Shown here: piece after piece, positions 26,266 through 37,411 of the stretch | Position numbering within the stretch: position 1 is the first letter of the stretch | Layout of the letters: each line of letters starts with the position of its first letter | IMG/VR virus record: IMGVR_UViG_3300037245_000806 | Span: 64,001 to 128,000 of that record | DNA: 64,000 nt | Direction: 5' to 3' (one strand) | Origin: a virus | Position numbers and translations under genes: made by a program | The notes under the pieces: model-generated | Told to the model about the DNA's origin: nothing | Database searches by the model: none | The model's input: only the letters and a program-made list of their open reading frames with translations

Positions 26266-26296
26266 AGGTCAGTCCCCACGTAGTCGTGACACAGTG

Positions 26297-29227
26297 TTAC
26301 GCTCTGGCCGGTCCGATCTTCGACATGCCATCGTACCAGATGAGTCCCTTCTTGCCGAGCGCTTTTGCGGCACTCATGAGTTTCTTGAAGTGAATACCGG
26401 TGAACTCAGGGCGCTTGGCGATTGCGGATAGCTTGTAGTCGCCCCCCTCGGCAGTCTTCTCCATGAACGCGAGCAACGCCGCCTGCGCCTTGCCCTTCGC
26501 GGCTGCCTCCTGAATGCCCTCCGCGACCTTCTCGGCACTCACAGAGTCCGTGCCATACATGGAGTCGTCAGCGGGCGTGAGGTACCGCTGAACCTGTCGC
26601 TTCGTGAAGCGGTCCGTGTTGCCGGTCAGCGTGGTGAGCGCCACGATGTCTGGCAGGATGTACTGGACGAACACGCGGCCTGCACCGATCCGCACGCCAG
26701 TGCCGCCCTTCATCTCCTTGTTCAGGATCGCATTGCCCTTGTAGTTGTCGTTGTCATCGATCACGAGCCCGAGCTTCGTGACAAGCTTGTCATTGGACCC
26801 GGCGACACCCTCGGCAATGCCCTTCTTCCAGAGGTCGCAGATATCATCCTGCTCGATCTTCCCGCGCACCAGCTGGCAGGCATCGGGGAGGACCACAGAC
26901 GAGCAAGTTCCGCAGCGCTTGTCGCCGTCCTTGTCAGTCTGCGAATGGCGGTAGTTCACTTCCTCCTTGGGCTTCCGGTCCACCGCTTTGTTGCGGGTGG
27001 GGGCGGCTGCCTCATCGACGGGCTCCAAGACTTTCTCACCCACGTCCTTCGAGGTCATTGAAACGCGCCAACCCTTGCCATTCTTCTTTCGCCACTTACG
27101 CATCAACCTCGCAGAGCCGCGCTTGACCACAATACCCGCAGGGTCCACAAGCACATAGCCCACCATGGCTTCCTGTAGTTTGATGATATTGGCAATGCCT
27201 TTCCCCGCCGGAAGCGAGCGCTGTGACGCCGGGGTGACACCAAGCTCCTTCTTCAGCGCAGCCCGGAACGATGGACTCTTCATGGCGTCAGCAAAGGACA
27301 CGCTGGCGAAGCCACCACTGAGCCTGACCTTCCCGCCGTACTTCTTGGCGAGCGCGCGAAGTGACTTCGTGAACGCACTGTCGGTCGCCTCATCGAGCTT
27401 GACGCGTGTGGTATTGAAGCCCGCGCCCTTGACTGCTCGAATGATGCGACTCACTGAGGCCACTGCTTCTGCTGCCGTCGCAGGCTTACGCCGTAGTGTT
27501 GCCATGAGTTTCTTCGCCCCCGTACCAATTGCCTTGAGCACCTTCACGAGCGTTGCGTCCGGTCGCTTGTCATCCACCGCGCGAATCGCATACGCCTTGA
27601 TCTTATGCTTCCCCTTCGGACCGAAGTCAACAAGATACTCAGGATCAACGGTAGTGTCCTTCGCGACCAGTGACACAATGTTGCCCCGGAGGCTCGCAAC
27701 CTTGACCTTCTGGCCGGGCTTGAAGAAGCTCTCCTCGTCGATGGATTCGCGCAGTGCTCTATGGGGCTCATCCGCGAGGCGATACTTCTGACCCTTGAGC
27801 GTGAACCAATGCTTCTTGCCGTGCGACACCATCACGCCCTTGAGTTGCTCATCCGACACAGCTTCAGCAACCCCCAGCTGAACGTAAACGCGGTAGACGT
27901 GCGAGCGGAAGCTGCTGTCCTCCTCGATGTCGTCCAACGCGAGGTAAATGCGCTTGGCTGCCTGCGTGTTCAGGGCGATACGGTAGTTGGCTCCCGCCTT
28001 CTTCGCCTCGCCTATCGCTTTGACGCCAGCCCGATCCAAGGCATCCTGCGGGTCGTCCACTTCGACGATCTTGTAACGCAACTCCTCGAACAGCTTCTTC
28101 GATACGACAATGTGCCGGGGCAGCTTGTACACTTCATCGATGGACTCGCGCGCGGACTTGAGTTCCTTGTACTCACTCCACCAACCGTCCAACGTCATGG
28201 CGTCCACTTGCGAGGTCATGACGCTCGCCGTGTACCATCCCGACGCACCCCCGCCAATGAAGTAGTAGTAACCCTTACCCTTTACCAGCTTCTCCTTGAC
28301 GCCCTTCGCCTTGAGCATCTTGTTGACCGTGCCGAGGGTCACCTTGCCCTCATCGATGGATTCATTCTTCCTCTTGAGCCGCACCTCGTCAGCCTTCACG
28401 GTGATCTCATTCGGGGTCTGCGTCTTCGTGCCGGGTGCGACACGTGCGTAGTCCTTTGGATCGATCAGGACCACGAGTGTCGCTGGACCCTTCGGATAGA
28501 AGACATTGACATCGCGCTTGATGATCTTGCCGGGGACCGGAGGCTTGACTGCGATGGGCTTGTACCCGCGCTTCCATCCGAACCTGCGGACGACCACGAT
28601 CTCATCGCCCACCTTGTACGTTGGGCCTTTGTAAATGCTCGGTATGAAGATGCGCTTCTCATCGATGGCAGCCGCCTCGAACACTTTCTTCGGACCGCAG
28701 TAGTCACATACACCACATTGCGCGGTGCCACGCCACTGAGTATCCGGGTCGTCCTTGGGGCCGAACCTGATGTGCTCCGTCGAACCGCACTCGGGGCAGA
28801 GCACCTCACTGATATCTTCAGTGGCAAGCAAGGTACCGCTAAGCGGAACCGTGAAGAATCCCTGCTTGCCAGAGCCGCTCGTCCCCGAAGGCCCGTGGCC
28901 GCTGTAGTGCATATGCACCTGAGCACCAGAGCGAGCGTACTTCGGGAAATACTTGGCGATGATCTTCTGCGTCTTCTCAGGGCTGTGATACAGGCGCGCG
29001 ACCGTGAAGTCCTTCGCGTCCTGTGACTTCCCCTTGGTGGCGTCATCGAACTTCAGGTACCGGGCCTTCATGAACGTGTCGGAGTATGCGATGCGCCGTA
29101 GTTTGCTGGCCATCTCAGTGGTGACGAGCACCTCGTACACGCGCAGCTGCTTGCCGACCACCTCGATGGCAAGGTCGCCCCGATAGACTTGGCCCGCACG
29201 CTTCTCAGCTTCTAGGATGGCTGGCAT
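26297..29227 (-). CDS. ~976-aa modular basic protein with [ILV]DE linkers (candidate head polyprotein B)
   Basis: ATG 29227 after GAAGGGG; ESIDE x3, AIDE, LDE, VDE, LQE, IQE linkers; zinc ribbon, SH3-like, HiPIP-like and wHTH-like modules. Confidence 0.8.
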   Translation of the reverse strand: MPAILEAEKRAGQVYRGDLAIEVVGKQLRVYEVLVTTEMASKLRRIAYSDTFMKARYLKFDDATKGKSQDAKDFTVARLYHSPEKTQKIIAKYFPKYARSGAQVHMHYSGHGPSGTSGSGKQGFFTVPLSGTLLATEDISEVLCPECGSTEHIRFGPKDDPDTQWRGTAQCGVCDYCGPKKVFEAAAIDEKRIFIPSIYKGPTYKVGDEIVVVRRFGWKRGYKPIAVKPPVPGKIIKRDVNVFYPKGPATLVVLIDPKDYARVAPGTKTQTPNEITVKADEVRLKRKNESIDEGKVTLGTVNKMLKAKGVKEKLVKGKGYYYFIGGGASGWYTASVMTSQVDAMTLDGWWSEYKELKSARESIDEVYKLPRHIVVSKKLFEELRYKIVEVDDPQDALDRAGVKAIGEAKKAGANYRIALNTQAAKRIYLALDDIEEDSSFRSHVYRVYVQLGVAEAVSDEQLKGVMVSHGKKHWFTLKGQKYRLADEPHRALRESIDEESFFKPGQKVKVASLRGNIVSLVAKDTTVDPEYLVDFGPKGKHKIKAYAIRAVDDKRPDATLVKVLKAIGTGAKKLMATLRRKPATAAEAVASVSRIIRAVKGAGFNTTRVKLDEATDSAFTKSLRALAKKYGGKVRLSGGFASVSFADAMKSPSFRAALKKELGVTPASQRSLPAGKGIANIIKLQEAMVGYVLVDPAGIVVKRGSARLMRKWRKKNGKGWRVSMTSKDVGEKVLEPVDEAAAPTRNKAVDRKPKEEVNYRHSQTDKDGDKRCGTCSSVVLPDACQLVRGKIEQDDICDLWKKGIAEGVAGSNDKLVTKLGLVIDDNDNYKGNAILNKEMKGGTGVRIGAGRVFVQYILPDIVALTTLTGNTDRFTKRQVQRYLTPADDSMYGTDSVSAEKVAEGIQEAAAKGKAQAALLAFMEKTAEGGDYKLSAIAKRPEFTGIHFKKLMSAAKALGKKGLIWYDGMSKIGPARA

Positions 29228-29237
29228 GACTGCCCCT

Positions 29238-29378
29238 TCAGATGAGGTCTTCGATGGAATCGAGCACGCGCTCTGTATCCGGCGACAGCATGATCTCCAT
29301 GACGACCAATGGTAGTGCAATGACGAGCACAACGAAAGCGCGAAGACTGAAGTTCAGCCGTGGCAGATCAGGATACAT
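29238..29378 (-). CDS. 46-aa single-TM peptide
   Basis: ATG overlaps upstream TAA; RAFVVLVIALPLVVMEIML hydrophobic segment. Confidence 0.5.
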   Translation of the reverse strand: MYPDLPRLNFSLRAFVVLVIALPLVVMEIMLSPDTERVLDSIEDLI

Positions 29379-29686
29379 TAGAGCGCCCCCTTTGGCGTCG
29401 GTCCACACCACTTGATCTCACCCTTGGTCAGGAAGAAATGGCTCTTGCATTCGCAGGTTCGCTGTAGTGATGGTGTCAATGTCACGCGCTTGTCCTCGGC
29501 GACGGTCAAGTCCCAGCGTGGACCCTTGCCGGGCAGCACTGGAATGTTCACAGCGCGCCCGCACCCGCAGGGGCACACAAACGCAACACACCAAATGCAA
29601 TCGTCCTCGCCACAGACATAGACGACGCCCGGCTTCATGTCTTGGAGATCAGGCCGATAGTGTGTACGCTCAGCGAGCCAGATCAT
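29378..29686 (-). CDS. DUF6527-like zinc-binding protein
   Basis: CPCGCG...W.L....VTL.PS....C.SHFFL..G.I.W. Confidence 0.75.
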   Translation of the reverse strand: MIWLAERTHYRPDLQDMKPGVVYVCGEDDCIWCVAFVCPCGCGRAVNIPVLPGKGPRWDLTVAEDKRVTLTPSLQRTCECKSHFFLTKGEIKWCGPTPKGAL

Positions 29687-29985
29687 GCGCCCTCCCGTGG
29701 AAGCTCACCGTGCTGGACCTTCTTCTCGAACAGCGCCGGGTTGCGGAAGAAGAGGCGCTTGGCCTCCTCGATCTTGTTGGGGTCCGTAGTGTTCCAGAGG
29801 AGGTGGGCCTTCGCTTGGTACACCTCGACCTCGACGTGTCGCCGACCCTTACCATCTTCGTCGGCGTCCCACTCGGTGATGTACAGGAAGTAATGGCCAT
29901 CCTGCCACTCCTGCACACTGCCCTTGCGCCTCGGGGTGAACGGCATGGACTCGGGGATCGTAGTCTCCACGTTGGCCTCCTGCAT
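29683..29985 (-). CDS. hypothetical protein
   Basis: Coupled ORF (ATGA overlap with downstream gene). Confidence 0.6.
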   Translation of the reverse strand: MQEANVETTIPESMPFTPRRKGSVQEWQDGHYFLYITEWDADEDGKGRRHVEVEVYQAKAHLLWNTTDPNKIEEAKRLFFRNPALFEKKVQHGELPREGA

Positions 29986-30084: not shown

Positions 30085-30555
30085 CTAACCCACTCGGGCA
30101 GCAGGGGTCACCCTTCGTGCTCTCGCGGCCATGGTATTATCGTTGTCGTCGCTGCGGGCTCCGTATCTAGAGCGCGTCAGGACAAGGCCCGTGTCCACAG
30201 GAAGGTCGCCGATGATCGTGCTCTCCGCTTGGTAGTCTTTAGGCGGATGTTTCAGCACTGTCCGTGACTCGTTGTCAGCATGGATGTCGGTGCCGTGTTG
30301 AGACTCACTGTTGGGCTCGGCATCTGGCGCACTGACCTGCGGAAGTTTCAGCGAGTAAACCCCGGTCGCTTGGACCTCGGCGTCGTAGTGCGCGGGTACC
30401 ATGTTGTCCGTCACGTCCATCGTGCAGCCCGCGTGGAACGGGGCGTCGGCAAGAAGCACCGTGCCCTGCTCAACCACAGGAGCTGTGTTCGACGTGCCCG
30501 CAACGAACAGTGCGAGCATTACTGCGATGAGAATCCCTGCCATGCACATGCGCAT
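30085..30555 (-). CDS. hypothetical secreted/membrane-anchored protein
   Basis: AAGGAGG RBS; N-terminal hydrophobic signal-like segment. Confidence 0.6.
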   Translation of the reverse strand: MRMCMAGILIAVMLALFVAGTSNTAPVVEQGTVLLADAPFHAGCTMDVTDNMVPAHYDAEVQATGVYSLKLPQVSAPDAEPNSESQHGTDIHADNESRTVLKHPPKDYQAESTIIGDLPVDTGLVLTRSRYGARSDDNDNTMAARARRVTPAARVG

Positions 30556-30584: not shown

Positions 30585-33500
30585 TTACTCGTCAAGTGCC
30601 GGGTCGGCTGCCTCGATCTCCTCTTCCGTCGCAGGTCTGACCTCTCCCGTTGGTGACACAACGTCACTGCCGCACTCGACGCACTTCGCGACGGTAGTCA
30701 GATTGAGGAATGCAATCGATGCACTTGAGCAATGCTCGCACCGAACCTCAGCCATGATGGGGCCGACGTCCGCGCACTCCTCTTTGCCTAGCCCGAGCAT
30801 GTTCTTGAACACTGCGGTGACAAGCTTGTAGTAACGCGAGCCATCACCACCCTCATCCTTGGACTTCTTGATATCCGGGTACTGCTTGTTGACCGCAGCC
30901 TGCGCCTTGCCCCACAGCTTGATCGCTTCATTCGCTGTCTTGCCCGCCTTGCGTGCGAGCGCCTTCATGTGCGTGGGCTCTTTCACCTTGCCCGCGCCGG
31001 GATAGGTCGTGGAAAGCTGGGCTTCGGTCACGCCCTCGACGGCTTCACCCAACGCCTTGAGCACCTTCGTGAGATGCCACAGGCCGATCTTGATATTGGA
31101 CGCGGAGACGAACGTGTCACGTAGTGTTTTCCCGTCACCCTTGGCCGCAGCATCGAACTTATTCACGAGCGCGACAGGGAGCGACCTCGTGAACGTGAAC
31201 ACGAGACGACCCTTACTGTCCACGACCCACTTGTCCCACGCGACGTTGTTCTTCTTGAGCCACCCGATCATCTTGTTGATGACCTTCTTGGCAGCCGGGT
31301 GCTTGTCCAAGTCGTCCTGCGTGTAGCCCTTGTCAGCTTCGTCCACATCTTCCTTGACCGTGAAGCCCTTGCCCTTCTTGAGGCCGTGCTTGGCGAGCGC
31401 TGGCAGCAGGTACTTCATGTGCTTCTGCTGGACGATCACGTAGTGGGTTCCGTCCGTGTCCTTCCGCATCCCGCTCGCTGTCTGCGAACTGATGACCGCA
31501 GCGATGTCGTCGGCCTTCTGCTTCGAGAGCTTGCCGAACTCCAAGGTCACCGCAGCCTCATCGAGGTCTTCCGTCTTGATATCCTTCGCACGATCCGCCA
31601 GCCCCTTGGCACCCTTGAGCGTAGGGTGAGAGCCGATGTCCTTGATGACCTTCTTGCCCTTCAGGATGACAACCCCGAACTGGTCCTGATGCGGCACCGG
31701 CTTGGGGTATCGCAGGAACACAACGCCGCCGCCTGTCTTCGCCCGGTACACGATCTTCTTGCCGGGGGCGTAGTCCTCTTCGAGGTCTTCGGACTCGGCA
31801 ACCTTCTTGATCACCGTGGCAGCCTTACGTGCGTTGTCGAACTTCTGGCCCTTCGCTTCGAGTTCGCCCTGCTTGCCACCCACCCACGCCTTGCCCGTCC
31901 ACACCTCGCGCGGATTGGCAATCGACCCCGACTTCCGGCGCACGAGAATAACTTCAGCGTACCCGGTCGCGGAAAGCTTGAGCGTCATGTACTCGTAGTC
32001 GCCCTTGGTGAACGAGACTTCGTCGAGGCCCGCCGCCTCAAGCTCGTCGCCCCCATCGAAGTCCTCGTCGGTCTTCTTCTTGCTGATCTTATCAATGGTG
32101 ACGATCTTGCCGCCGGGGAACTCAGTGAGCATTATCCGCGCGAGCTTCATGCTCTTCATGTAGAGGGGTTTGCCCGAACCCTTTTGAACGACGGCGTGCG
32201 TGTACCCGCGTGCCTGCAAGATGGCGGCGAGGCGCTTCTCTTGCACGTCCACAACTTCGTCGAGGTCCACGTCTTCCTTGACCACCTTGACGTCTGCCTT
32301 CAGGAACTTGCGCCCGTCTGCCACGACGACAATGTACTTGCCCTCGTCACGTAGTTTCGTCGGGTCCGCAACGCCCTCGCCCTTCTTCCAGACGCCGCCC
32401 TTCGATCCGTCCTTGTTGACCGGGACGGTGCCCCTCGGGTTAGAGATCGAGAAGGTGCCCTTGAAGGTCTTCGCCTCATCGAGGTCTTCCTTGAGCGCCG
32501 GGTCATTCAGGTTCACGACAATCGTGTTGCCACGGAACTGAATCGACTTCTTGTTGGTCTCCGGGTACTCGATGCTGAACGTGCGCATGAAACTGTCCCG
32601 GCGGTCCTCGCTTGGTAGTGTGATGACTGCGGTCTTACCGGAGACCTTCAGCTTGCCCTTGTCGTCCTTCGCCATGATCTTCAGGGAGGCGAGCGCAGCC
32701 TCATCGACAGACTCGTGGGCTTTCTTCTTGCGCCACTTCCAGCCCTTGTTCGCCACCTCGTTGGACTTGTTGAGCTTGGCAGCCTCCTTGGGAGTCATGG
32801 ACTTGAAGACCTTCTTGACGCCGGTCTTCCTGACCGGGTTGTTCTGCGAGTCAACGAGTACGTAGTCTGCTTCGTCGATGCCTTCCCTCGGACCCGTCTT
32901 CTTGGCCTTCGCAATCGGGACAAGGACTTCCTCGTCGCCCTTCTTGGGGCGGGGGTTCGTCACCCTGACCTTGAGCGTGTTGTTGACATCGCTTATCACC
33001 GCACCCTGCATCAGCTTTCCATTGGGCGCAGTCCACGTGATGCGCTGGCCCTTCTTGAACACCTCGTCAAGGCCCTCGGTGGGATTCTTGTTGTAGTCGG
33101 CCCCGAAGACATACCCGTACTTCTTGAGCGCCTTGAGCATCTCCTTGTCCTTGAGGGCTTTCTTGTCACCGCGTCCAGCGGGCGTCATGGACAATACCGA
33201 CAGGCCCATCAACCGCGCGGTCACGACGGCAACCTGCTCGTCGCCCTTAAACACGGGGCGCACGATCACCGAAAACCGATTCGGATACTTCCCTGCCTTA
33301 TCCGTGTGGAAGCCGCCGAGCCCGTAGACGTCCCCGAGCGTCATCACGATGTGTCGGCCAACCTTGCGCGTAAGCTTCCCGTCACTGCCGGGGGTTGGCC
33401 CCTTCTCATCGAGGTCGTCATCGGACTCGTTCTTCTTCTTGTCGGCCACCCCGCGAGCGTAGCCTTTCTTGTATGCCTTGATCCGGGCGCGTGACCAATT

Positions 33501-36500
33501 CTTCTTGTCGAACTCCTTCTTCTCCTGCTCGCCCTTCGTCGCCGCGATGTGCCCGTGCATGAATGAAGCATGAGCCGCATCACCACGGGTGCCACTGCGA
33601 CCGTACTCCTCGATGGCCGCTGCTTCCGCGAGGTCTTCGTAGTCATCCCCATCAATGGACTCTGCAACATAGGTCGCATTGAGGGCCTGAGCCACAACGT
33701 CTTTACCGGACCCCTTCTTGGTGAGCTTCACGTGACGATACATCTGAAGGAGCAGTAGTCCCGCTGAGACCTCAGGCTCCGAGAGCCCCGTGGCCTTCAC
33801 GATGGCCTTGCCAGTGATAGGCTTCTTCGCCTTCTTCACCGCAGCGAGCATCGCCTTCTCACGCTTGTCCAGCGGCGCGCGCTCATCGAGGTCGTCCTCG
33901 GAGACAGTCTTCTTCTTGCACTTCACGCAGTACCCTGTCGCGGCGAGCACCTTGCTGCCGCAGCCCGGACACTTGACGGTCCCCGTAGTGGCCTTCTCAT
34001 CGAGCATGGCTTCGGAGTGCAGGAGCAAGTCCTCCGCATCCTCATCCGCGATGTGCCCCATGTCCTCGCCGTCAATCACGAGCGAGTAGGTATCGTCGTC
34101 CTCCGTAACGATCTCGATCTCGCACTCCTTGACCTTGCGGTCAAGCTGGATCATGTGACCAAGCTTGGCCTCGTCATCGCGGAGCGGCCTGACCCACGTG
34201 CCCTTGCCCTTCACCTTCCACCCGGCGGCGGTCATACCGAGCGCGCGTGAAACAGCGCGGAGAATCGTCTTGATCTGGTTGTCGCCCTCAGCTGCCGGGG
34301 CACCCAACGTGACCTGCGCAGTCTTGCCAACAACCTTGCGCGTTGCGATGGGGTTGTCGGCACCGCGACGAACTGCAACAAGGGCGTCACCCTTGATGCC
34401 GATGGTCCTCGTAGTACGCCCCTTGCCATCGCCGCCGCGCACGAAGTCCGAGATAACTATCTTGGCCTTCATCGGGATGCTATAGCCCTTCACCTCATCG
34501 ACTGACTCGATGATCGAGAGCCCCTCTGCCTTGGCTGCCTTGCGGATTGCGTTGACCCATGTCTGACTCACGTTGCCCTGCGGATCACCGAGCACAATCC
34601 GGTTGCCCTTGCGCGTAGCGAGCGGGTCTTTGCGACCGCGCGAAGGTCCGGTGAGGATGTCGCCCTCGATGTCAAGGTTCTTCGCCTTGACGCCCGAGCC
34701 ATCCTTGCCCTGCACGAAGGCCTTGATCATCTTGCGGTCGCCCGCCTTCAGCTTGTAGCCCATGGACTCCCGTAGTCGTGACACAGTGTTATCATCTTCG
34801 CCGAGGGCGAGGAGACGCATGCGACAGGCGCTTTCGACCGCTACGTCCCGAGTCGCTATAAACTCGTGGCTTCTCCCACTTTTGATGCCTTCAAACAGGC
34901 TCGTAACACAACGTTCGCCCTCCACAACAGTACCATGCTCCTCAACGTACTCCTGAAAGAAGGCTTCAACCATGACGTCAAACTCGTTGGGAAGGTCCGC
35001 ATAGAATTCAACCATCTTCTCAAGAAGGCTATGGACTTCCTGTAGTGTGATCGGAACCCTGTACGCCTGACCGCCAACCTGTACCAACGTCTTCCCATCA
35101 TCCGTACCATCCCTGCGTGCGGTCCATGAAAGGAACTTGGACTGAAAGCCCTCCTCCCCCTCCATGTACAGCGGGCCTTGCTGTAGTTCAGGCTCGAAGC
35201 CCACGCACAGTACCTCACCGGGGTGGATCATCTTGTTCTCGCCTGAGCCCACCACGGGAGCGCCTATAAGATTGTGCGAACCCTCGGGGTCATCCTTACC
35301 CTTGTCTGACTCACTGACATCCTTGCTGAGGCTCTTGAGCATACGCAGGTCTGTTGCCACCGAAGCGTTCTTCTTCTTCTTGCCTGACTTGATATCCTTC
35401 CGCAGCTGCCTGAGGGCTTTCTTCATCCCGTCCGCTGTGGCCCGCACTCCATAGCCCTTGGCGTACTGCTTCAGTTCCCTGCTGTGACCGTAGGCTTCGT
35501 CGATACCTTCGTTGGGGGCCTTCGCGCTGAACTTCTTGACTTCCTTCTTGAGCACGTGTGTCTGGACTCCCGGTTCGAGTTCCACCTTGTACCCGGTCGC
35601 GGTCTTCTTGATAACCGTGACGGTCTTGCCCTTGGCGTACTTCTTGCCCTTGAGCTTCAGGTCCGTAGTGAGCATGTACGCCTCGTCGATAGACTCGAAG
35701 GGCTTCGTGAGTTTCGTCATGCGCGCATACGGGAGCTTGTCCCAATGCGCGTGGGCAGCCTTGACCACTTCAGCCTTCTCCTTCGGATCGCCGTAGTCAC
35801 CGAAGGACATCGCAGCTTTCTTCCACCCTCTCGGGCTCAGCTTCTTCAGGCGCTTCTGAATCTTCTTGACCGTCTTCACCTCGTTGTCGGCGAAGCTCAG
35901 GATCATGAAGGCGACAAGGTCTTTGATGGTACCCTTGTCTGCTTCGTCGAGGTCTTCCACTTTGGGGAACCACAGCCCGCCGTTGCCATACCACCGCACG
36001 CCATTGGCATCCTCAACACAGAGGATACTGTTCTCGGCATCCTCATTGAGCGTGGAGTCGTGCAGGTCGGGGTACAGGAACTGGAACGCATTGTCAGTGA
36101 CCCCACCCTCTTCGCAGATGGCTACGTAGTCTGCCTTGGTCTCGGGGCGCAGGCCCTCGGTCTTCATCGCGGGGTCTTCCTCTTTGGACTTCGCGGTTGC
36201 CTTGGCGAAGCCCGCACGCTTCGGGAAGCATTCGATGATCGTGAAGTCGCTGACCTGACCGGACTCGAAGTCGGTATCGCCAGCGGTGACGAGAGTGTCC
36301 AGCTTGCAGAAACCCCTCACACCTTCGTTGAGCTTCTGAAGAGGCTCGGCAGCAATCTTGCCTTGGAAGATCGCGAGGAACGTAGTGTCCGTTCCTTCGA
36401 GTTGTGTCTCAAGGAACTGCGTGATGAGGTCGCCGCACTTCTCCATGAGGTACGCCTCGAAGAGGATCGCGGCCATGCCCGTGTCGGTGTTGCTGAAGGC

Positions 36501-36830
36501 CGGGCTCTTGTCGGTGAAGTTCTTGGCGAACTCGCGGGCGCTCTGCTTCTCGTCCTGAAACCCGGAGGCGACTTCGAGGATGAGGTCAATGTACTCGTCG
36601 CGGTGTGAGATGCTGCCGGTGATGGTAGCGGGGAGGTCGAGGCTCGACCGGAGCTTGGCAACCTTCTTATAGAATCCGCTGGCCTTCTTCTGGCGAACCG
36701 ATGCCTTCTGCTTGGCACTCAGGCGCTTGGGCTTCCTGAACTTCATGAGCCTGCGGCGCTTCTTGGCCTTGATGCCCTGTAGTCTGCGCTGGGAGGAAGA
36801 CTGCCGACGAACGGTTGCCTCAAATACCAT
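30585..36830 (-). CDS. 2081-aa modular basic protein with 15 internal [ILV]DE linkers (candidate head polyprotein A)
   Basis: Repeated E[SGD][ILV]DE linkers separate 55-110 aa Lys-rich modules; has its own sigma70-like promoter. Confidence 0.85.
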   Translation of the reverse strand: MVFEATVRRQSSSQRRLQGIKAKKRRRLMKFRKPKRLSAKQKASVRQKKASGFYKKVAKLRSSLDLPATITGSISHRDEYIDLILEVASGFQDEKQSAREFAKNFTDKSPAFSNTDTGMAAILFEAYLMEKCGDLITQFLETQLEGTDTTFLAIFQGKIAAEPLQKLNEGVRGFCKLDTLVTAGDTDFESGQVSDFTIIECFPKRAGFAKATAKSKEEDPAMKTEGLRPETKADYVAICEEGGVTDNAFQFLYPDLHDSTLNEDAENSILCVEDANGVRWYGNGGLWFPKVEDLDEADKGTIKDLVAFMILSFADNEVKTVKKIQKRLKKLSPRGWKKAAMSFGDYGDPKEKAEVVKAAHAHWDKLPYARMTKLTKPFESIDEAYMLTTDLKLKGKKYAKGKTVTVIKKTATGYKVELEPGVQTHVLKKEVKKFSAKAPNEGIDEAYGHSRELKQYAKGYGVRATADGMKKALRQLRKDIKSGKKKKNASVATDLRMLKSLSKDVSESDKGKDDPEGSHNLIGAPVVGSGENKMIHPGEVLCVGFEPELQQGPLYMEGEEGFQSKFLSWTARRDGTDDGKTLVQVGGQAYRVPITLQEVHSLLEKMVEFYADLPNEFDVMVEAFFQEYVEEHGTVVEGERCVTSLFEGIKSGRSHEFIATRDVAVESACRMRLLALGEDDNTVSRLRESMGYKLKAGDRKMIKAFVQGKDGSGVKAKNLDIEGDILTGPSRGRKDPLATRKGNRIVLGDPQGNVSQTWVNAIRKAAKAEGLSIIESVDEVKGYSIPMKAKIVISDFVRGGDGKGRTTRTIGIKGDALVAVRRGADNPIATRKVVGKTAQVTLGAPAAEGDNQIKTILRAVSRALGMTAAGWKVKGKGTWVRPLRDDEAKLGHMIQLDRKVKECEIEIVTEDDDTYSLVIDGEDMGHIADEDAEDLLLHSEAMLDEKATTGTVKCPGCGSKVLAATGYCVKCKKKTVSEDDLDERAPLDKREKAMLAAVKKAKKPITGKAIVKATGLSEPEVSAGLLLLQMYRHVKLTKKGSGKDVVAQALNATYVAESIDGDDYEDLAEAAAIEEYGRSGTRGDAAHASFMHGHIAATKGEQEKKEFDKKNWSRARIKAYKKGYARGVADKKKNESDDDLDEKGPTPGSDGKLTRKVGRHIVMTLGDVYGLGGFHTDKAGKYPNRFSVIVRPVFKGDEQVAVVTARLMGLSVLSMTPAGRGDKKALKDKEMLKALKKYGYVFGADYNKNPTEGLDEVFKKGQRITWTAPNGKLMQGAVISDVNNTLKVRVTNPRPKKGDEEVLVPIAKAKKTGPREGIDEADYVLVDSQNNPVRKTGVKKVFKSMTPKEAAKLNKSNEVANKGWKWRKKKAHESVDEAALASLKIMAKDDKGKLKVSGKTAVITLPSEDRRDSFMRTFSIEYPETNKKSIQFRGNTIVVNLNDPALKEDLDEAKTFKGTFSISNPRGTVPVNKDGSKGGVWKKGEGVADPTKLRDEGKYIVVVADGRKFLKADVKVVKEDVDLDEVVDVQEKRLAAILQARGYTHAVVQKGSGKPLYMKSMKLARIMLTEFPGGKIVTIDKISKKKTDEDFDGGDELEAAGLDEVSFTKGDYEYMTLKLSATGYAEVILVRRKSGSIANPREVWTGKAWVGGKQGELEAKGQKFDNARKAATVIKKVAESEDLEEDYAPGKKIVYRAKTGGGVVFLRYPKPVPHQDQFGVVILKGKKVIKDIGSHPTLKGAKGLADRAKDIKTEDLDEAAVTLEFGKLSKQKADDIAAVISSQTASGMRKDTDGTHYVIVQQKHMKYLLPALAKHGLKKGKGFTVKEDVDEADKGYTQDDLDKHPAAKKVINKMIGWLKKNNVAWDKWVVDSKGRLVFTFTRSLPVALVNKFDAAAKGDGKTLRDTFVSASNIKIGLWHLTKVLKALGEAVEGVTEAQLSTTYPGAGKVKEPTHMKALARKAGKTANEAIKLWGKAQAAVNKQYPDIKKSKDEGGDGSRYYKLVTAVFKNMLGLGKEECADVGPIMAEVRCEHCSSASIAFLNLTTVAKCVECGSDVVSPTGEVRPATEEEIEAADPALDE

Positions 36831-36873: not shown

Positions 36874-36902
36874 AGGATAGGTGAGCCTTAACACAGTGTC
36901 AA
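36874..36902 (-). promoter_or_regulatory. promoter TTGACA-17-TATCCT overlapped by palindrome
   Basis: -35 36897-36902, -10 36874-36879; TAACACAGTGTCA 36889-36901. Confidence 0.7.
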
Positions 36903-37411
36903 GCGACATGTTGCCACGATTTGCGCGTGACAACGGCACTGATTGCACCGAGACTTACAAGGTATTCCGCAGCAAGATCAGCGTATGTTACGCCACCAAC
37001 GGCATAGAGCGCCCTGATTTCTTTGACGTCACACGCGGTCAACTTGGAGCCATAATTCTTTTCACCCACGTTGTTTTGCAAGACAATGGCGCTATGCCTT
37101 TGGTTGTCTTCGGGTGTCGCGTACTCAAGGTTCACCAAGCGACAGTCAGCCTTAATGCCGTTTATGTGGTTCACGTGGTAGCCCCAAGGGCATGGGCCGA
37201 TGAACGCGGCGGCTACCTGTTGATGCACCTGAACTGTTTCAGCCATCCCGTCCACACTGAAGTCCAGATGCAAATAACCAGTGCTCAGATTAACATGCGT
37301 CTTTAGAATACCGCCGTTGGTCCTCTTGCGCGCGATACTGAAAATCCGACCTAAATCTGAAATACGGTAGTAGCCCACGTACCCTACAACGTCCTCCCAG
37401 AGTTCGACCAA
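36899..37411 (-). CDS. NUMOD4-HNH homing endonuclease
   Basis: W.DV.GY.GYY.IS.LGRI (NUMOD4), VHQ.VA.AF...VNHING.K.D.RL.NLEY.T..DN..H (HNH), C-terminal HTH. Confidence 0.9.
   Translation of the reverse strand: MVELWEDVVGYVGYYRISDLGRIFSIARKRTNGGILKTHVNLSTGYLHLDFSVDGMAETVQVHQQVAAAFIGPCPWGYHVNHINGIKADCRLVNLEYATPEDNQRHSAIVLQNNVGEKNYGSKLTACDVKEIRALYAVGGVTYADLAAEYLVSLGAISAVVTRKSWQHVA

What the first reader, a model, noticed from the sequence alone, without database searches (positions are those of the whole stretch)
26297..29227. Second linker-punctuated polyprotein (~976 aa) with the same grammar
Seen: a short leader ending ILE (MPAILE/AEK), then ISE, AIDE, ESIDE x3, LDE, LQE, PVDE, IAE and IQE between basic modules (zinc ribbon CPEC/CGVC, two SH3-like barrels, C-terminal wHTH-like). 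One module (GYVLVD...V...G...KGW) resembles a module in the 2081-aa protein (DYVLVDSQNNPVRKTG...KGWKW). Inference: the two genes form a system with a shared, shuffled module pool; the leader resembles the T4 capsid-targeting peptide, which ends in (I/L)xE.
Basis: partly seen in the sequence, partly recalled or inferred. Interest (0 to 1): 0.8.

Follow-up and report, generated by a model that had tools for sequence, protein, structure and literature searches.

The report
Phage head-cargo polyprotein with protease linkers
An uncultured T4-like phage strings about eleven small, mostly basic protein modules into one 976-residue protein, joined by the cutting motif of its own head-maturation protease, so the protein is probably loaded into the capsid and cut into separate small proteins, though no cut or packaging has been measured.

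Summary
[ILV]-D-E occurs 6 times against 0.7 expected, and 16 times against 2.1 in the neighbouring 2081-aa protein.

The window lies in a 143-kb phage with T4-type portal, capsid protein and gp21-family (S77) protease. That protease cuts after L/I-x-E. The phage's own protease has the same extended motif on both sides of its catalytic domain.

Six to eight metagenomic relatives keep the first and last modules, swap the middle ones, and keep the linkers. Homology-defined module starts fall on the proposed sites (P about 0.002).

At least six modules have free-standing homologues. Homologues of two of them carry T4-style capsid-targeting leaders, inside arrays of genes with the same leader, and the cut site sits at the same place before the domain.

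One module is a HiPIP-type iron-sulfur domain. The others have no known function.

Best reading (about 0.65): a capsid-packaged internal-protein polyprotein cut by the prohead protease. Cleavage, packaging and ejection are all inferred.

This scan found the same class earlier on other genomes. I found no published description.

The parts
29233..29239 (-). Ribosome-binding site (GAAGGGG) 5 nt before the ATG
   Evidence: it fixes the start at MPAILE rather than the upstream TTG of the 1011-aa frame
29210..29227 (-). Leader, residues 1-6 (MPAILE), proposed short propeptide ending in I-x-E
   Evidence: Conserved as MPAI[AL]E in P0003-5 and P0007. Not similar to the T4 CTS.
28805..29209 (-). Module 1, residues 7-141, ends ISE. 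Conserved first module of the family.
   Evidence: 47-56% identical in four relatives. ISE aligns with ESIDE of relatives. Free-standing 121-133-aa homologues P0021, P0084, P0086 and P0112, one in the small-gene region of a 174-kb T4-like contig. Atlas MutS-I look-alike at TM 0.41 only.
28658..28804 (-). Module 2, residues 142-190, Cys-rich (CxxC...CxxCxxC), ends AIDE
   Evidence: Sequence. No homologue found. The zinc-ribbon label is untested.
28349..28657 (-). Module 3, residues 191-293, beta-rich, probably an SH3-like barrel, ends ESIDE
   Evidence: Found at different positions in P0003, P0006 and P0007. Free-standing 97-aa P0008 (E 2e-27). pLDDT 65-80. Atlas TM 0.52-0.57 to CAP-Gly, NifZ and DUF4926.
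28133..28348 (-). Module 4, residues 294-365, phrog_9154 family, ends ESIDE
   Evidence: phrog_9154 E 1e-14. 119 matching stretches, 92 in proteins of 150 aa or fewer. AF2 pLDDT 92. No PDB fold match. Uncharacterised homologues in cultured phages. The closest free-standing homologue (L005, E 1e-23) starts with a leader ending LNE that a neighbouring gene shares.
27734..28132 (-). Module 5, residues 366-498, ends ESIDE. May hold further sites.
   Evidence: Sequence only. No homologue found.
27389..27733 (-). Module 6, residues 499-613, ends LDE
   Evidence: The C-terminal half matches P0003 and P0004. LDE aligns with ESIDE and ESTDE of relatives.
27170..27388 (-). Module 7, residues 614-686, ends LQE
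   Evidence: Free-standing 69-aa homologue P0058 aligned over 620-683
27011..27169 (-). Module 8, residues 687-739 (YVLVD...KGW), ends PVDE
   Evidence: Clear homologue in P0009 (score 123 vs 23 +/- 5). Only marginal link to the 2081-aa protein's 1321-1377.
26810..27010 (-). Module 9, residues 740-806, HiPIP-like four-Cys iron-sulfur domain, ends IAE
   Evidence: The profile of five members hits HiPIP PioC (6xyv_A) at E 1.1e-6 over 48 of its 54 residues, with four Cys and the Tyr aligned. Present in P0003-6, P0009, P0010 and P0103, and as the free 61-aa P0056. P0010 ends about where the IAE site lies.
26507..26809 (-). Module 10, residues 807-907, beta-rich, acidic (pI 5.4), ends IQE
   Evidence: Weak matches in P0004 and P0006. 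pLDDT about 63 over 830-890.
26300..26506 (-). Module 11, residues 908-976, helical. Conserved last module of the family.
   Evidence: 52-80% identical at the C-terminus of relatives, and N-terminal in P0010. Free-standing homologues P0107 and P0143 carry targeting-type leaders and sit in arrays of genes with the same leader. The cut site lies at the same distance before the conserved G-K-x-Q in both forms.
26287..26299 (-). 13-bp palindrome TAACACTGTGTCA overlapping the TAA stop
   Evidence: The same palindrome lies upstream of the 2081-aa gene near 36889. Its role is unknown.
30585..36830 (-). Partner gene: 2081-aa polyprotein with 16 [ILV]DE sites
   Evidence: Syntenic 1542-aa and 1660-aa counterparts in L002 and L014, with conserved ends and variable middles.

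Best explanation
The 976-aa protein is a precursor polyprotein of internal head proteins. It is made late, built into the prohead core, and cut by the phage's gp21-family (S77) serine protease after the Glu of about eleven hydrophobic-x-E sites. The consensus site is E-[S/D/G]-[L/I/V/A]-D-E, followed by Ala.

The cuts would release a 6-residue leader and about eleven small proteins of 49-135 residues, mostly basic. These would stay with the packaged DNA and probably enter the host with it.

The design replaces the T4 arrangement, in which each internal protein has its own gene and its own targeting leader. Here one gene has a conserved first and last module and a fast-changing set of middle cassettes. 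It works beside a second gene of the same kind (2081 aa).

Shown: the motif enrichment, the module borders, the free-standing homologues, the protease gene and its own matching sites.

Inferred: cleavage, packaging, retention, ejection, and what the modules do in the host.
For: 1. T4-type head machinery is present:
- Peptidase_S77 at genome 42668-43156, inside a 539-aa protease-scaffold ORF.
- Gp23 capsid protein.
- T4-type portal.

2. gp21 cuts after L/I-x-E, and its substrates lie inside the prohead (PMC9026906).

3. The same extended motif occurs in the head genes:
- The protease ORF reads LIESIDE at 58-64 and EGLDE at 275-279, on either side of the S77 domain (76-237).
- Across 106 homologues, L58-x-E60-S61 is near invariant. 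L-D-E at 277-279 is kept in 62-77 of 107, and reads E[DSGA]LDE in the six full-length closest relatives.
- The capsid protein has IDE at 79-81, just before the Gp23 domain starts at residue 90.

4. The motif is strongly enriched.

5. Relatives share the leader, first and last modules and the linker grammar, but differ in the middle modules. Two relatives that are 87% identical in shared blocks carry different cassettes.

6. Seven homology-defined module starts lie a summed 15.5 residues from the proposed sites, against 191 for shifted sites (P 0.002).

7. Non-DE sites of this protein (ISE, IQE) align with [IL]DE of relatives.

8. Free-standing homologues of modules 4 and 11 carry 10-11-residue leaders ending [ILV]-x-E. 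One is MKTYREILTE, against the T4 MKTYQEFIAE. Many unrelated neighbouring genes in T4-like contigs share these leaders.

9. The products are small and basic, like T4 IPI-III.
Against: - There is no protein-level evidence: no virion proteome, no mapped N-termini, no expression data.
- L/I-x-E is a short motif, and T4 gp21 leaves many such sites uncut.
- The 6-residue leader is too short and too unlike the T4 targeting sequence to count as one, so how the precursor would reach the prohead core is unknown.
- Most free-standing homologues of module 4 have no leader, so that family is not in general a head protein.
- The gene lies next to tail-fibre-like genes, not in the head cluster.
- An Fe-S (HiPIP-like) module is an odd capsid cargo.
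- The whole-protein model was too poor (pLDDT 38) to show that the linkers are exposed.
Confidence: 0.65

Rival explanations
1. It is a prohead-core (scaffold-like) substrate. It is packaged and cut at the same sites, but the pieces are debris that leaves the head before DNA packaging, like T4 gp22, gp67 and gp68. They are not functional cargo.
For: T4 core proteins are cut into multiple fragments that are mostly removed. In SPN3US, multiple cuts serve to destroy propeptides. The motif evidence fits this reading equally well.
Against: - The modules are folded units with free-standing homologues in many phages. Some lie in small-gene regions of T4-like contigs and some carry internal-protein-type leaders.
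- The modules are basic rather than acidic coiled coils. The acidic coiled-coil scaffold is already supplied by the C-terminal half of the protease ORF.
- The fast cassette turnover suits conflict genes more than scaffolds.
Confidence: 0.12
2. It is an uncut multidomain protein. The acidic x-D-E stretches would be flexible spacers, or short docking motifs, between DNA-binding or structural modules. The protein would be, for example, a DNA-condensing, tail or baseplate-associated protein.
For: - The gene sits directly upstream of tail-fibre-like and beta-helix genes.
- No cleavage has been measured.
- Short acidic linkers between basic domains are common.
Against: - A spacer need not keep hydrophobic P3, Asp P2, Glu P1 and Ala P1' across 104 sites in 12 proteins.
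- A spacer would not recur at the borders of the phage's own protease domain, nor just before the mature capsid-protein domain.
- Free-standing homologues place a leader ending in the same motif exactly where the linker sits.
- P0010 ends about where the IAE site lies, and the 2081-aa protein ends in LDE.
Confidence: 0.13
3. It is a cytoplasmic polyprotein. It is cut, by the phage protease or another one, outside the capsid, simply to make equimolar small proteins during infection. It is not packaged.
For: Most homologues of module 4 and the homologues of module 1 lack leaders and look like ordinary small phage proteins. A HiPIP-like redox module would make more sense in the cell.
Against: T4-type proteases are assembled into the prohead core and act there. 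No other protease gene was seen near the locus. Homologues of modules 4 and 11 carry capsid-targeting-type leaders.
Confidence: 0.07

Closest known systems
Phage T4 internal proteins IPI, IPII, IPIII and Alt (capsid targeting sequence removed by the gp21 prohead protease)
   Same: - T4-type head genes, including a gp21-family protease.
- Cutting rule of hydrophobic-x-Glu.
- Small, basic, highly variable products.
- Homologues of two modules carry T4-like leaders in arrays of leader-bearing genes.
   Different: - T4 has one gene, one leader and one cut per internal protein. Here about eleven modules sit in one reading frame with internal sites.
- The leader is only 6 residues and unlike the T4 sequence.
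- The site carries an extended acidic context (E-x-hydrophobic-D-E-A).
Inner-body and ejection proteins of phiKZ-like giant phages (for example SPN3US gp53 and gp54, cut by gp245)
   Same: Abundant head-internal proteins cut by a gp21-related protease after x-x-Glu, some at several sites.
   Different: - There the motif is A-x-E.
- Apart from the protease's own cut, all mapped cuts remove N-terminal propeptides, which are then broken up. One mature C-terminal product remains.
- Here every segment between sites is a module with its own homologues.
Polyvalent proteins of phages and conjugative elements (Iyer et al. 2017, PMC5512222)
   Same: Many unrelated modules in one polypeptide, shuffled between relatives. 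They are proposed to travel with the DNA and to be processed into parts.
   Different: - Those proteins are built from recognisable enzymatic and anti-restriction domains.
- Their proposed processing is by an in-built metallopeptidase domain.
- Here no such domain was found. The modules are tiny, and the cut sites match the head protease.
Polyproteins of RNA viruses
   Same: One translation product cut by a viral protease at a repeated short motif into separate proteins.
   Different: This is analogy only. The virus type and protease family differ, and here the cutting would take place inside a capsid precursor.

Membership tests
T4-type internal head proteins (gp21 substrates with a capsid targeting sequence) | The phage encodes a gp21-family (Peptidase_S77) prohead protease with a T4-type capsid protein and portal | tested here: met
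   PF03420 65.9 bits (cut-off 27), PF07068 E 6e-42, PF07230 E 1e-44
T4-type internal head proteins (gp21 substrates with a capsid targeting sequence) | N-terminal propeptide ending in L/I-x-E | tested here: met
   MPAILE, kept as MPAI[AL]E in relatives. The rule is taken from PMC9026906.
T4-type internal head proteins (gp21 substrates with a capsid targeting sequence) | A leader of about 10 residues, shared among the phage's internal-protein genes, that targets them to the core (T4: MKTYQEFIAE) | tested here: not met
   The leader has 6 residues, no similarity to the T4 sequence, and no other gene of the genome shares it. The feature is met only by free-standing homologues in other phages.
T4-type internal head proteins (gp21 substrates with a capsid targeting sequence) | Presence in the virion and cleavage at the predicted Glu | not testable with these tools
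   Uncultured phage, no proteome.
T4-type internal head proteins (gp21 substrates with a capsid targeting sequence) | Small basic mature products | tested here: met
   Eleven predicted products of 49-135 aa, nine with pI 7.9-10.6
Polyvalent proteins (Iyer et al. 2017) | Recognised conflict domains (peptidase, methylase, ParB-like, ArdC-N, MuF and others) combined in one polypeptide | tested here: not met
   No Pfam family at E 0.01 or better, and one PHROG of unknown function. MutS-I-like look-alike of module 1 at TM 0.41 only.
HiPIP (high-potential iron-sulfur protein), module 740-806 only | Four cluster-binding Cys in the HiPIP spacing, with the conserved Tyr before the first Cys | tested here: met
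   Profile against PDB: PioC 6xyv_A at E 1.1e-6, 48 of 54 residues, with Cys and Tyr aligned. All four Cys are invariant in five members. Pfam did not report it. Cluster binding itself is untested.
phrog_9154 small phage proteins, module 294-365 only | Match to the family profile over its whole length | tested here: met
   E 1e-14, profile positions 2-66 of 70. BFVD homologues at TM 0.79-0.88. Function unknown.

The most novel reading that the evidence does not exclude
A lineage of uncultured T4-like phages pre-loads its capsid with a swappable set of a few dozen small host-directed proteins, one of them an iron-sulfur protein. It encodes them as two polyproteins that the head-maturation protease cuts inside the prohead. 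This would be a DNA-phage counterpart of RNA-virus polyproteins, and an evolutionary alternative to the T4 array of separately tagged internal-protein genes. New cassettes would gain capsid delivery simply by being inserted between two linkers.
Probability: 0.45. Interest if true: 0.85.

Novelty: new variant of a known kind. Interest (0 to 1): 0.72.

Why it matters
T4 internal proteins are the textbook case of proteins injected with phage DNA to disarm host defences, and each needs its own gene and its own targeting tag. If this locus works as proposed, there is a second, more compact solution: one tag or anchor and one protease rule deliver many unrelated small proteins in fixed proportion, and cassettes can be swapped quickly between close relatives.

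That would have three consequences:
- It gives a sequence rule for finding injected phage proteins in metagenomes, namely modules bounded by the phage's own protease motif.
- It points to dozens of uncharacterised small domains as candidate early effectors or anti-defence proteins.
- It offers a natural design for loading several cargo proteins into T4-type capsids.

The idea is directly testable with the recombinant protease and the polyprotein.

Tried and rejected
- Nucleotide and protein searches of 50,697 cultured phage records with the gene found nothing. The portal is at most 29% identical to any cultured phage.
- The word-indexed protein search at similar length found only the query. 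Two scans of viral contigs gave only two loci, both for module 4.
- Pfam and PHROGs gave no function for the protein or for ten free-standing module homologues. Cluster look-up gave no names.
- The whole-protein AlphaFold model on a 6-sequence alignment was too poor to use (pLDDT 38). A 64-sequence global alignment misplaced the short homologues and was dropped.
- The confident model of module 4 had no clear match in the PDB, by Foldseek (best E 0.56) or by VIA-align (best Z 4.0).
- Profiles of modules 1, 3, 4 and 11 found no clear solved relative (module 1: best E 0.004, a PDZ fragment with no stretch passing on its own).
- My first boundary test, with union envelopes, was badly designed (P 0.066). 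I replaced it with median starts.
- No module of either polyprotein recurs as a separate gene in this genome.
- The relative's contig could not be searched for its protease by handle. The protease was found instead by protein search.
- I sent no complex prediction, because an enzyme with its substrate is a poor use of that tool.
Full report
**What is there**

The window is bases 64001-128000 of a 143,033-bp virus record rated 98% complete. The finding is a minus-strand ORF. The frame is open from a TTG at 29332, but the real start is the ATG at 29227. That ATG has a GAAGGGG ribosome-binding site 5 nt upstream, and four relatives begin with the same MPAI[AL]E. The product has 976 residues (P0001).

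**Is it more than chance?**

In 2000 composition-preserving shuffles, [ILV]DE is expected 0.69 times and occurs 6 times. With an acidic residue two places before it, 0.07 is expected and 4 occur. E[SG][ILV]DE is expected 0.00 times and occurs 3 times. No shuffle reached the observed counts.

The neighbouring 2081-aa protein (P0002, window 30585-36830) shows 16 against 2.08, and 12 against 0.30. Together the two proteins hold 22 of the genome's 78 [ILV]DE on about 7% of its residues.

A 4-mer count with no prior motif puts DLDE, ESID, SIDE and LDEA first in these two proteins. It puts LDEA, DLDE, ESLD, SLDE, ESID and SIDE first in their relatives taken alone. A logo of 104 sites from 12 proteins reads P5 Glu, P4 Ser/Asp/Gly, P3 Leu/Ile/Ala/Val, P2 Asp, P1 Glu, P1' Ala.

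**The genome's head machinery**

The phage has a T4-type portal (PF07230), a Gp23-family capsid protein and a Peptidase_S77 (gp21-family) protease. The protease lies inside a 539-aa ORF whose C-terminal half is an acidic, coiled-coil, scaffold-like region. No cultured phage is close: the portal is at most 29% identical to any.

T4 gp21 cuts after Glu in L/I-x-E, inside the prohead. Its substrates include core proteins, the capsid protein (65-residue propeptide), the internal proteins and Alt (7-residue propeptide) (PMC9026906).

In this phage the protease ORF reads LIESIDE at 58-64, just before the S77 domain (76-237), and EGLDE at 275-279, just after it. In an alignment of 106 homologues of 480-600 residues:
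- L58-x-E60-S61 is nearly invariant (94-106 of 107).
- L-D-E at 277-279 is kept in 62-77 of 107.
- The six full-length closest relatives read EDLDE, EALDE, ESLDE or EGLDE there (the seventh, shorter, reads GSLDE), which is exactly the polyprotein linker.

The capsid protein has IDE at 79-81, nine residues before the Gp23 domain begins. So the linker of the polyproteins is the motif found where this phage's own head proteins are expected to be cut.

**Relatives**

An exhaustive HMMER search of 1.84 billion representatives gave 367 hits. Five long proteins (P0003-P0007, 588-1373 aa) share four things with P0001: the leader, the first module, the last module and the linker grammar. Their middle modules differ and sit in different orders. 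P0009 and P0010 carry subsets, and in P0010 the 'last' module comes first.

P0005 and P0007 are 87% identical in their shared blocks, yet one has 411 and the other 239 residues of different modules between those blocks.

Sites of P0001 that are not x-D-E (ISE 141, IQE 907) align with ESIDE, ESLDE or EDLDE in relatives. VDE 739 aligns with [TA]DE, and IAE 806 with [IV]AE.

The gene pair is syntenic in a 144.5-kb contig (L002: 1542 aa and 1373 aa) and in a marine-sediment contig (L014: 1660 aa and 594 aa, adjacent). In both it lies downstream of thymidylate kinase (in L014 also thyX) and upstream of beta-helix or tail-fibre-like genes. The three large proteins start MVFE, MSILE and MPRPISE. Each leader is followed directly by the same conserved [AV]TVRRQ.

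**Modules are independent units**

At least six of the eleven modules have free-standing homologues of matching size:
- Residues 14-116: proteins of 121-133 aa.
- Residues 191-282: a 97-aa protein.
- Residues 294-360: 92 matching stretches lie in proteins of 150 aa or fewer (phrog_9154).
- Residues 620-683: a 69-aa protein.
- Residues 746-803: a 61-aa protein.
- Residues 900-976: proteins of 74-98 aa.

The median first aligned residue of seven module families lies a summed 15.5 residues from the nearest proposed site. Circularly shifted sites give 191 (P 0.002).

**Link to capsid targeting**

P0107 (74 aa) is a homologue of the last module (E 3e-13). It starts MKTYREILTE, while the T4 targeting sequence is MKTYQEFIAE (PMC8442874). 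It lies in a T4-like contig between gp13-type and gp14-type neck genes, in a run of about twenty genes that all start with the same kind of leader.

P0143 is another homologue. It lies in a run of about ten genes that start MIKL..[IL]L.E.

The closest free-standing homologue of module 4 (L005, E 1e-23) starts MMIKLIDILNE, and a neighbouring unrelated gene has the same leader.

In an alignment of the last-module family, the Glu that ends the leader (free-standing forms) and the Glu that ends the linker (polyprotein forms) fall at the same place, a few residues before the conserved G-K-x-Q. The same domain is thus found either with its own targeting leader or behind an internal linker. I regard this as the strongest comparative evidence that the linker is a gp21-type site and that these modules are head cargo.

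**What the modules are**

Little can be said.
- Module 9 (740-806) is HiPIP-like. A five-sequence profile hits the small HiPIP PioC at E 1.1e-6 over 48 of its 54 residues, with the four Cys and the Tyr aligned. This confirms a lead from another first-stage note.
- Module 4 folds with pLDDT 92 into a small alpha/beta unit. It has no clear PDB match. It has uncharacterised homologues in Serratia, Stenotrophomonas, Sphingobium, Rhodobacter and Sinorhizobium phages.
- Module 3 is probably an SH3-like barrel.
- The MutS-I look-alike of module 1 (TM 0.41) is too weak to use.
- A free-standing homologue of module 1 sits among small genes of a 174-kb T4-like contig.
- Nine modules are basic.

The cited pair is not significant by itself. 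It is linked only weakly through P0103.

Module sharing between the two gene types across the lineage is clear, however. Two consecutive modules of P0004, with the linker between them, match P0002 294-428 (E 4e-10). A module of P0007 and P0004 matches P0002 1056-1139 (E 1e-8 and 2e-5). A module of P0103 matches P0002 1316-1372.

**Mechanism and limits**

The best reading is a polyprotein of internal head proteins, cut in the prohead by the S77 protease.

What is not known:
- How the precursor is targeted. The leader is too short and too unlike the T4 sequence, so the conserved end modules are candidates.
- Which sites are really cut.
- Whether the fragments stay in the head.
- Whether the fragments are ejected.

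No protein-level data exist. The rivals are a scaffold-like substrate, an uncut multidomain protein, and a cytoplasmic polyprotein. They are weighed in their own sections.

**Comparison and novelty**

The closest known systems are the T4 internal proteins (one gene, one leader, one cut each) and the ejection proteins of phiKZ-like phages. In the latter, multiple A-x-E cuts destroy propeptides and leave one mature product. Polyvalent proteins share the idea of many modules travelling with the DNA, but they use recognisable enzyme domains and a proposed built-in peptidase.

Full-text searches found no paper describing a head-protease-cut polyprotein of internal proteins.

This scan has already reported the same class on at least eight other genomes, so this is a further member of a recurring, apparently unpublished class.

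What this case adds:
- The protease's own matching sites.
- The homologous placement of leader and linker.
- The conserved two-gene layout with fast cassette turnover.
- An Fe-S module.

Noticed in passing
window 26287-26299 and about 36880-36895: The 13-bp palindrome TAACACTGTGTCA overlaps the stop codon of the 976-aa gene. A copy (GACACTGTGTTAA) lies just upstream of the 2081-aa gene. Other first-stage notes report it genome-wide at gene junctions.
   Followed up: partly
window 29378-29686 (-): A 102-aa DUF6527 protein (PF20137, E 2e-22), a 100-aa ORF (29683-29985) and a 156-aa protein with a hydrophobic N-terminus (30085-30555) lie between the two polyprotein genes. The set differs in L002, and in L014 the two polyprotein genes are adjacent, so these look like variable inserts.
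   Followed up: partly
window 36899-37411 (-): An HNH/NUMOD4 homing-type endonuclease lies directly upstream of the 2081-aa gene. An HNH gene lies two genes further upstream of the large gene in the syntenic contig L002.
   Followed up: no
outside the window: genome 56144-57517 (L012:18145-19518, -): A 457-aa protein joins a zeta-toxin-like P-loop kinase domain (PF06414, E 1e-16) to a C-terminal Tad6 Thoeris-inhibitor domain (PF25188, E 2e-25).
   Followed up: no
outside the window: genome 45554-53323 (L012:7555-15324, -): A 2589-aa protein with a NUDIX domain lies about 2 kb upstream of the protease and capsid genes, separated from them by several small ORFs. It has a few sites of the same kind (for example EGEIDE at 544) and may be another head-delivered substrate.
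   Followed up: partly
outside the window: genome 59462-60814 (L013:6463-7815, -): A 450-aa protein with no family match has very acidic and very basic stretches and three [ILV]DE sites, two of them in the extended form. It is a candidate further protease substrate or core protein.
   Followed up: no
L007:4179-14124: In a T4-like contig, about twenty consecutive genes between gp13-like and gp14-like neck genes all start with a T4-type targeting leader (MKT[YFW]..[IL]..E). Among them are SprT-like, DnaJ-like and ParB-N-like proteins. This is an unusually large array of putative internal proteins.
   Followed up: partly
L010:774-10012 and L005:229-3190: Two other phage fragments have arrays of unrelated genes that share a different leader (MIKL..[IL]L.E). 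This suggests lineage-specific capsid-targeting tags.
   Followed up: partly
P0017, P0051, P0103 (metagenomic proteins): More distant long proteins (934-1615 aa) share only one module with this protein. They use the same linker grammar (ESLDE, EDLDE, or xTDE followed by AA), so the architecture reaches beyond this lineage.
   Followed up: partly
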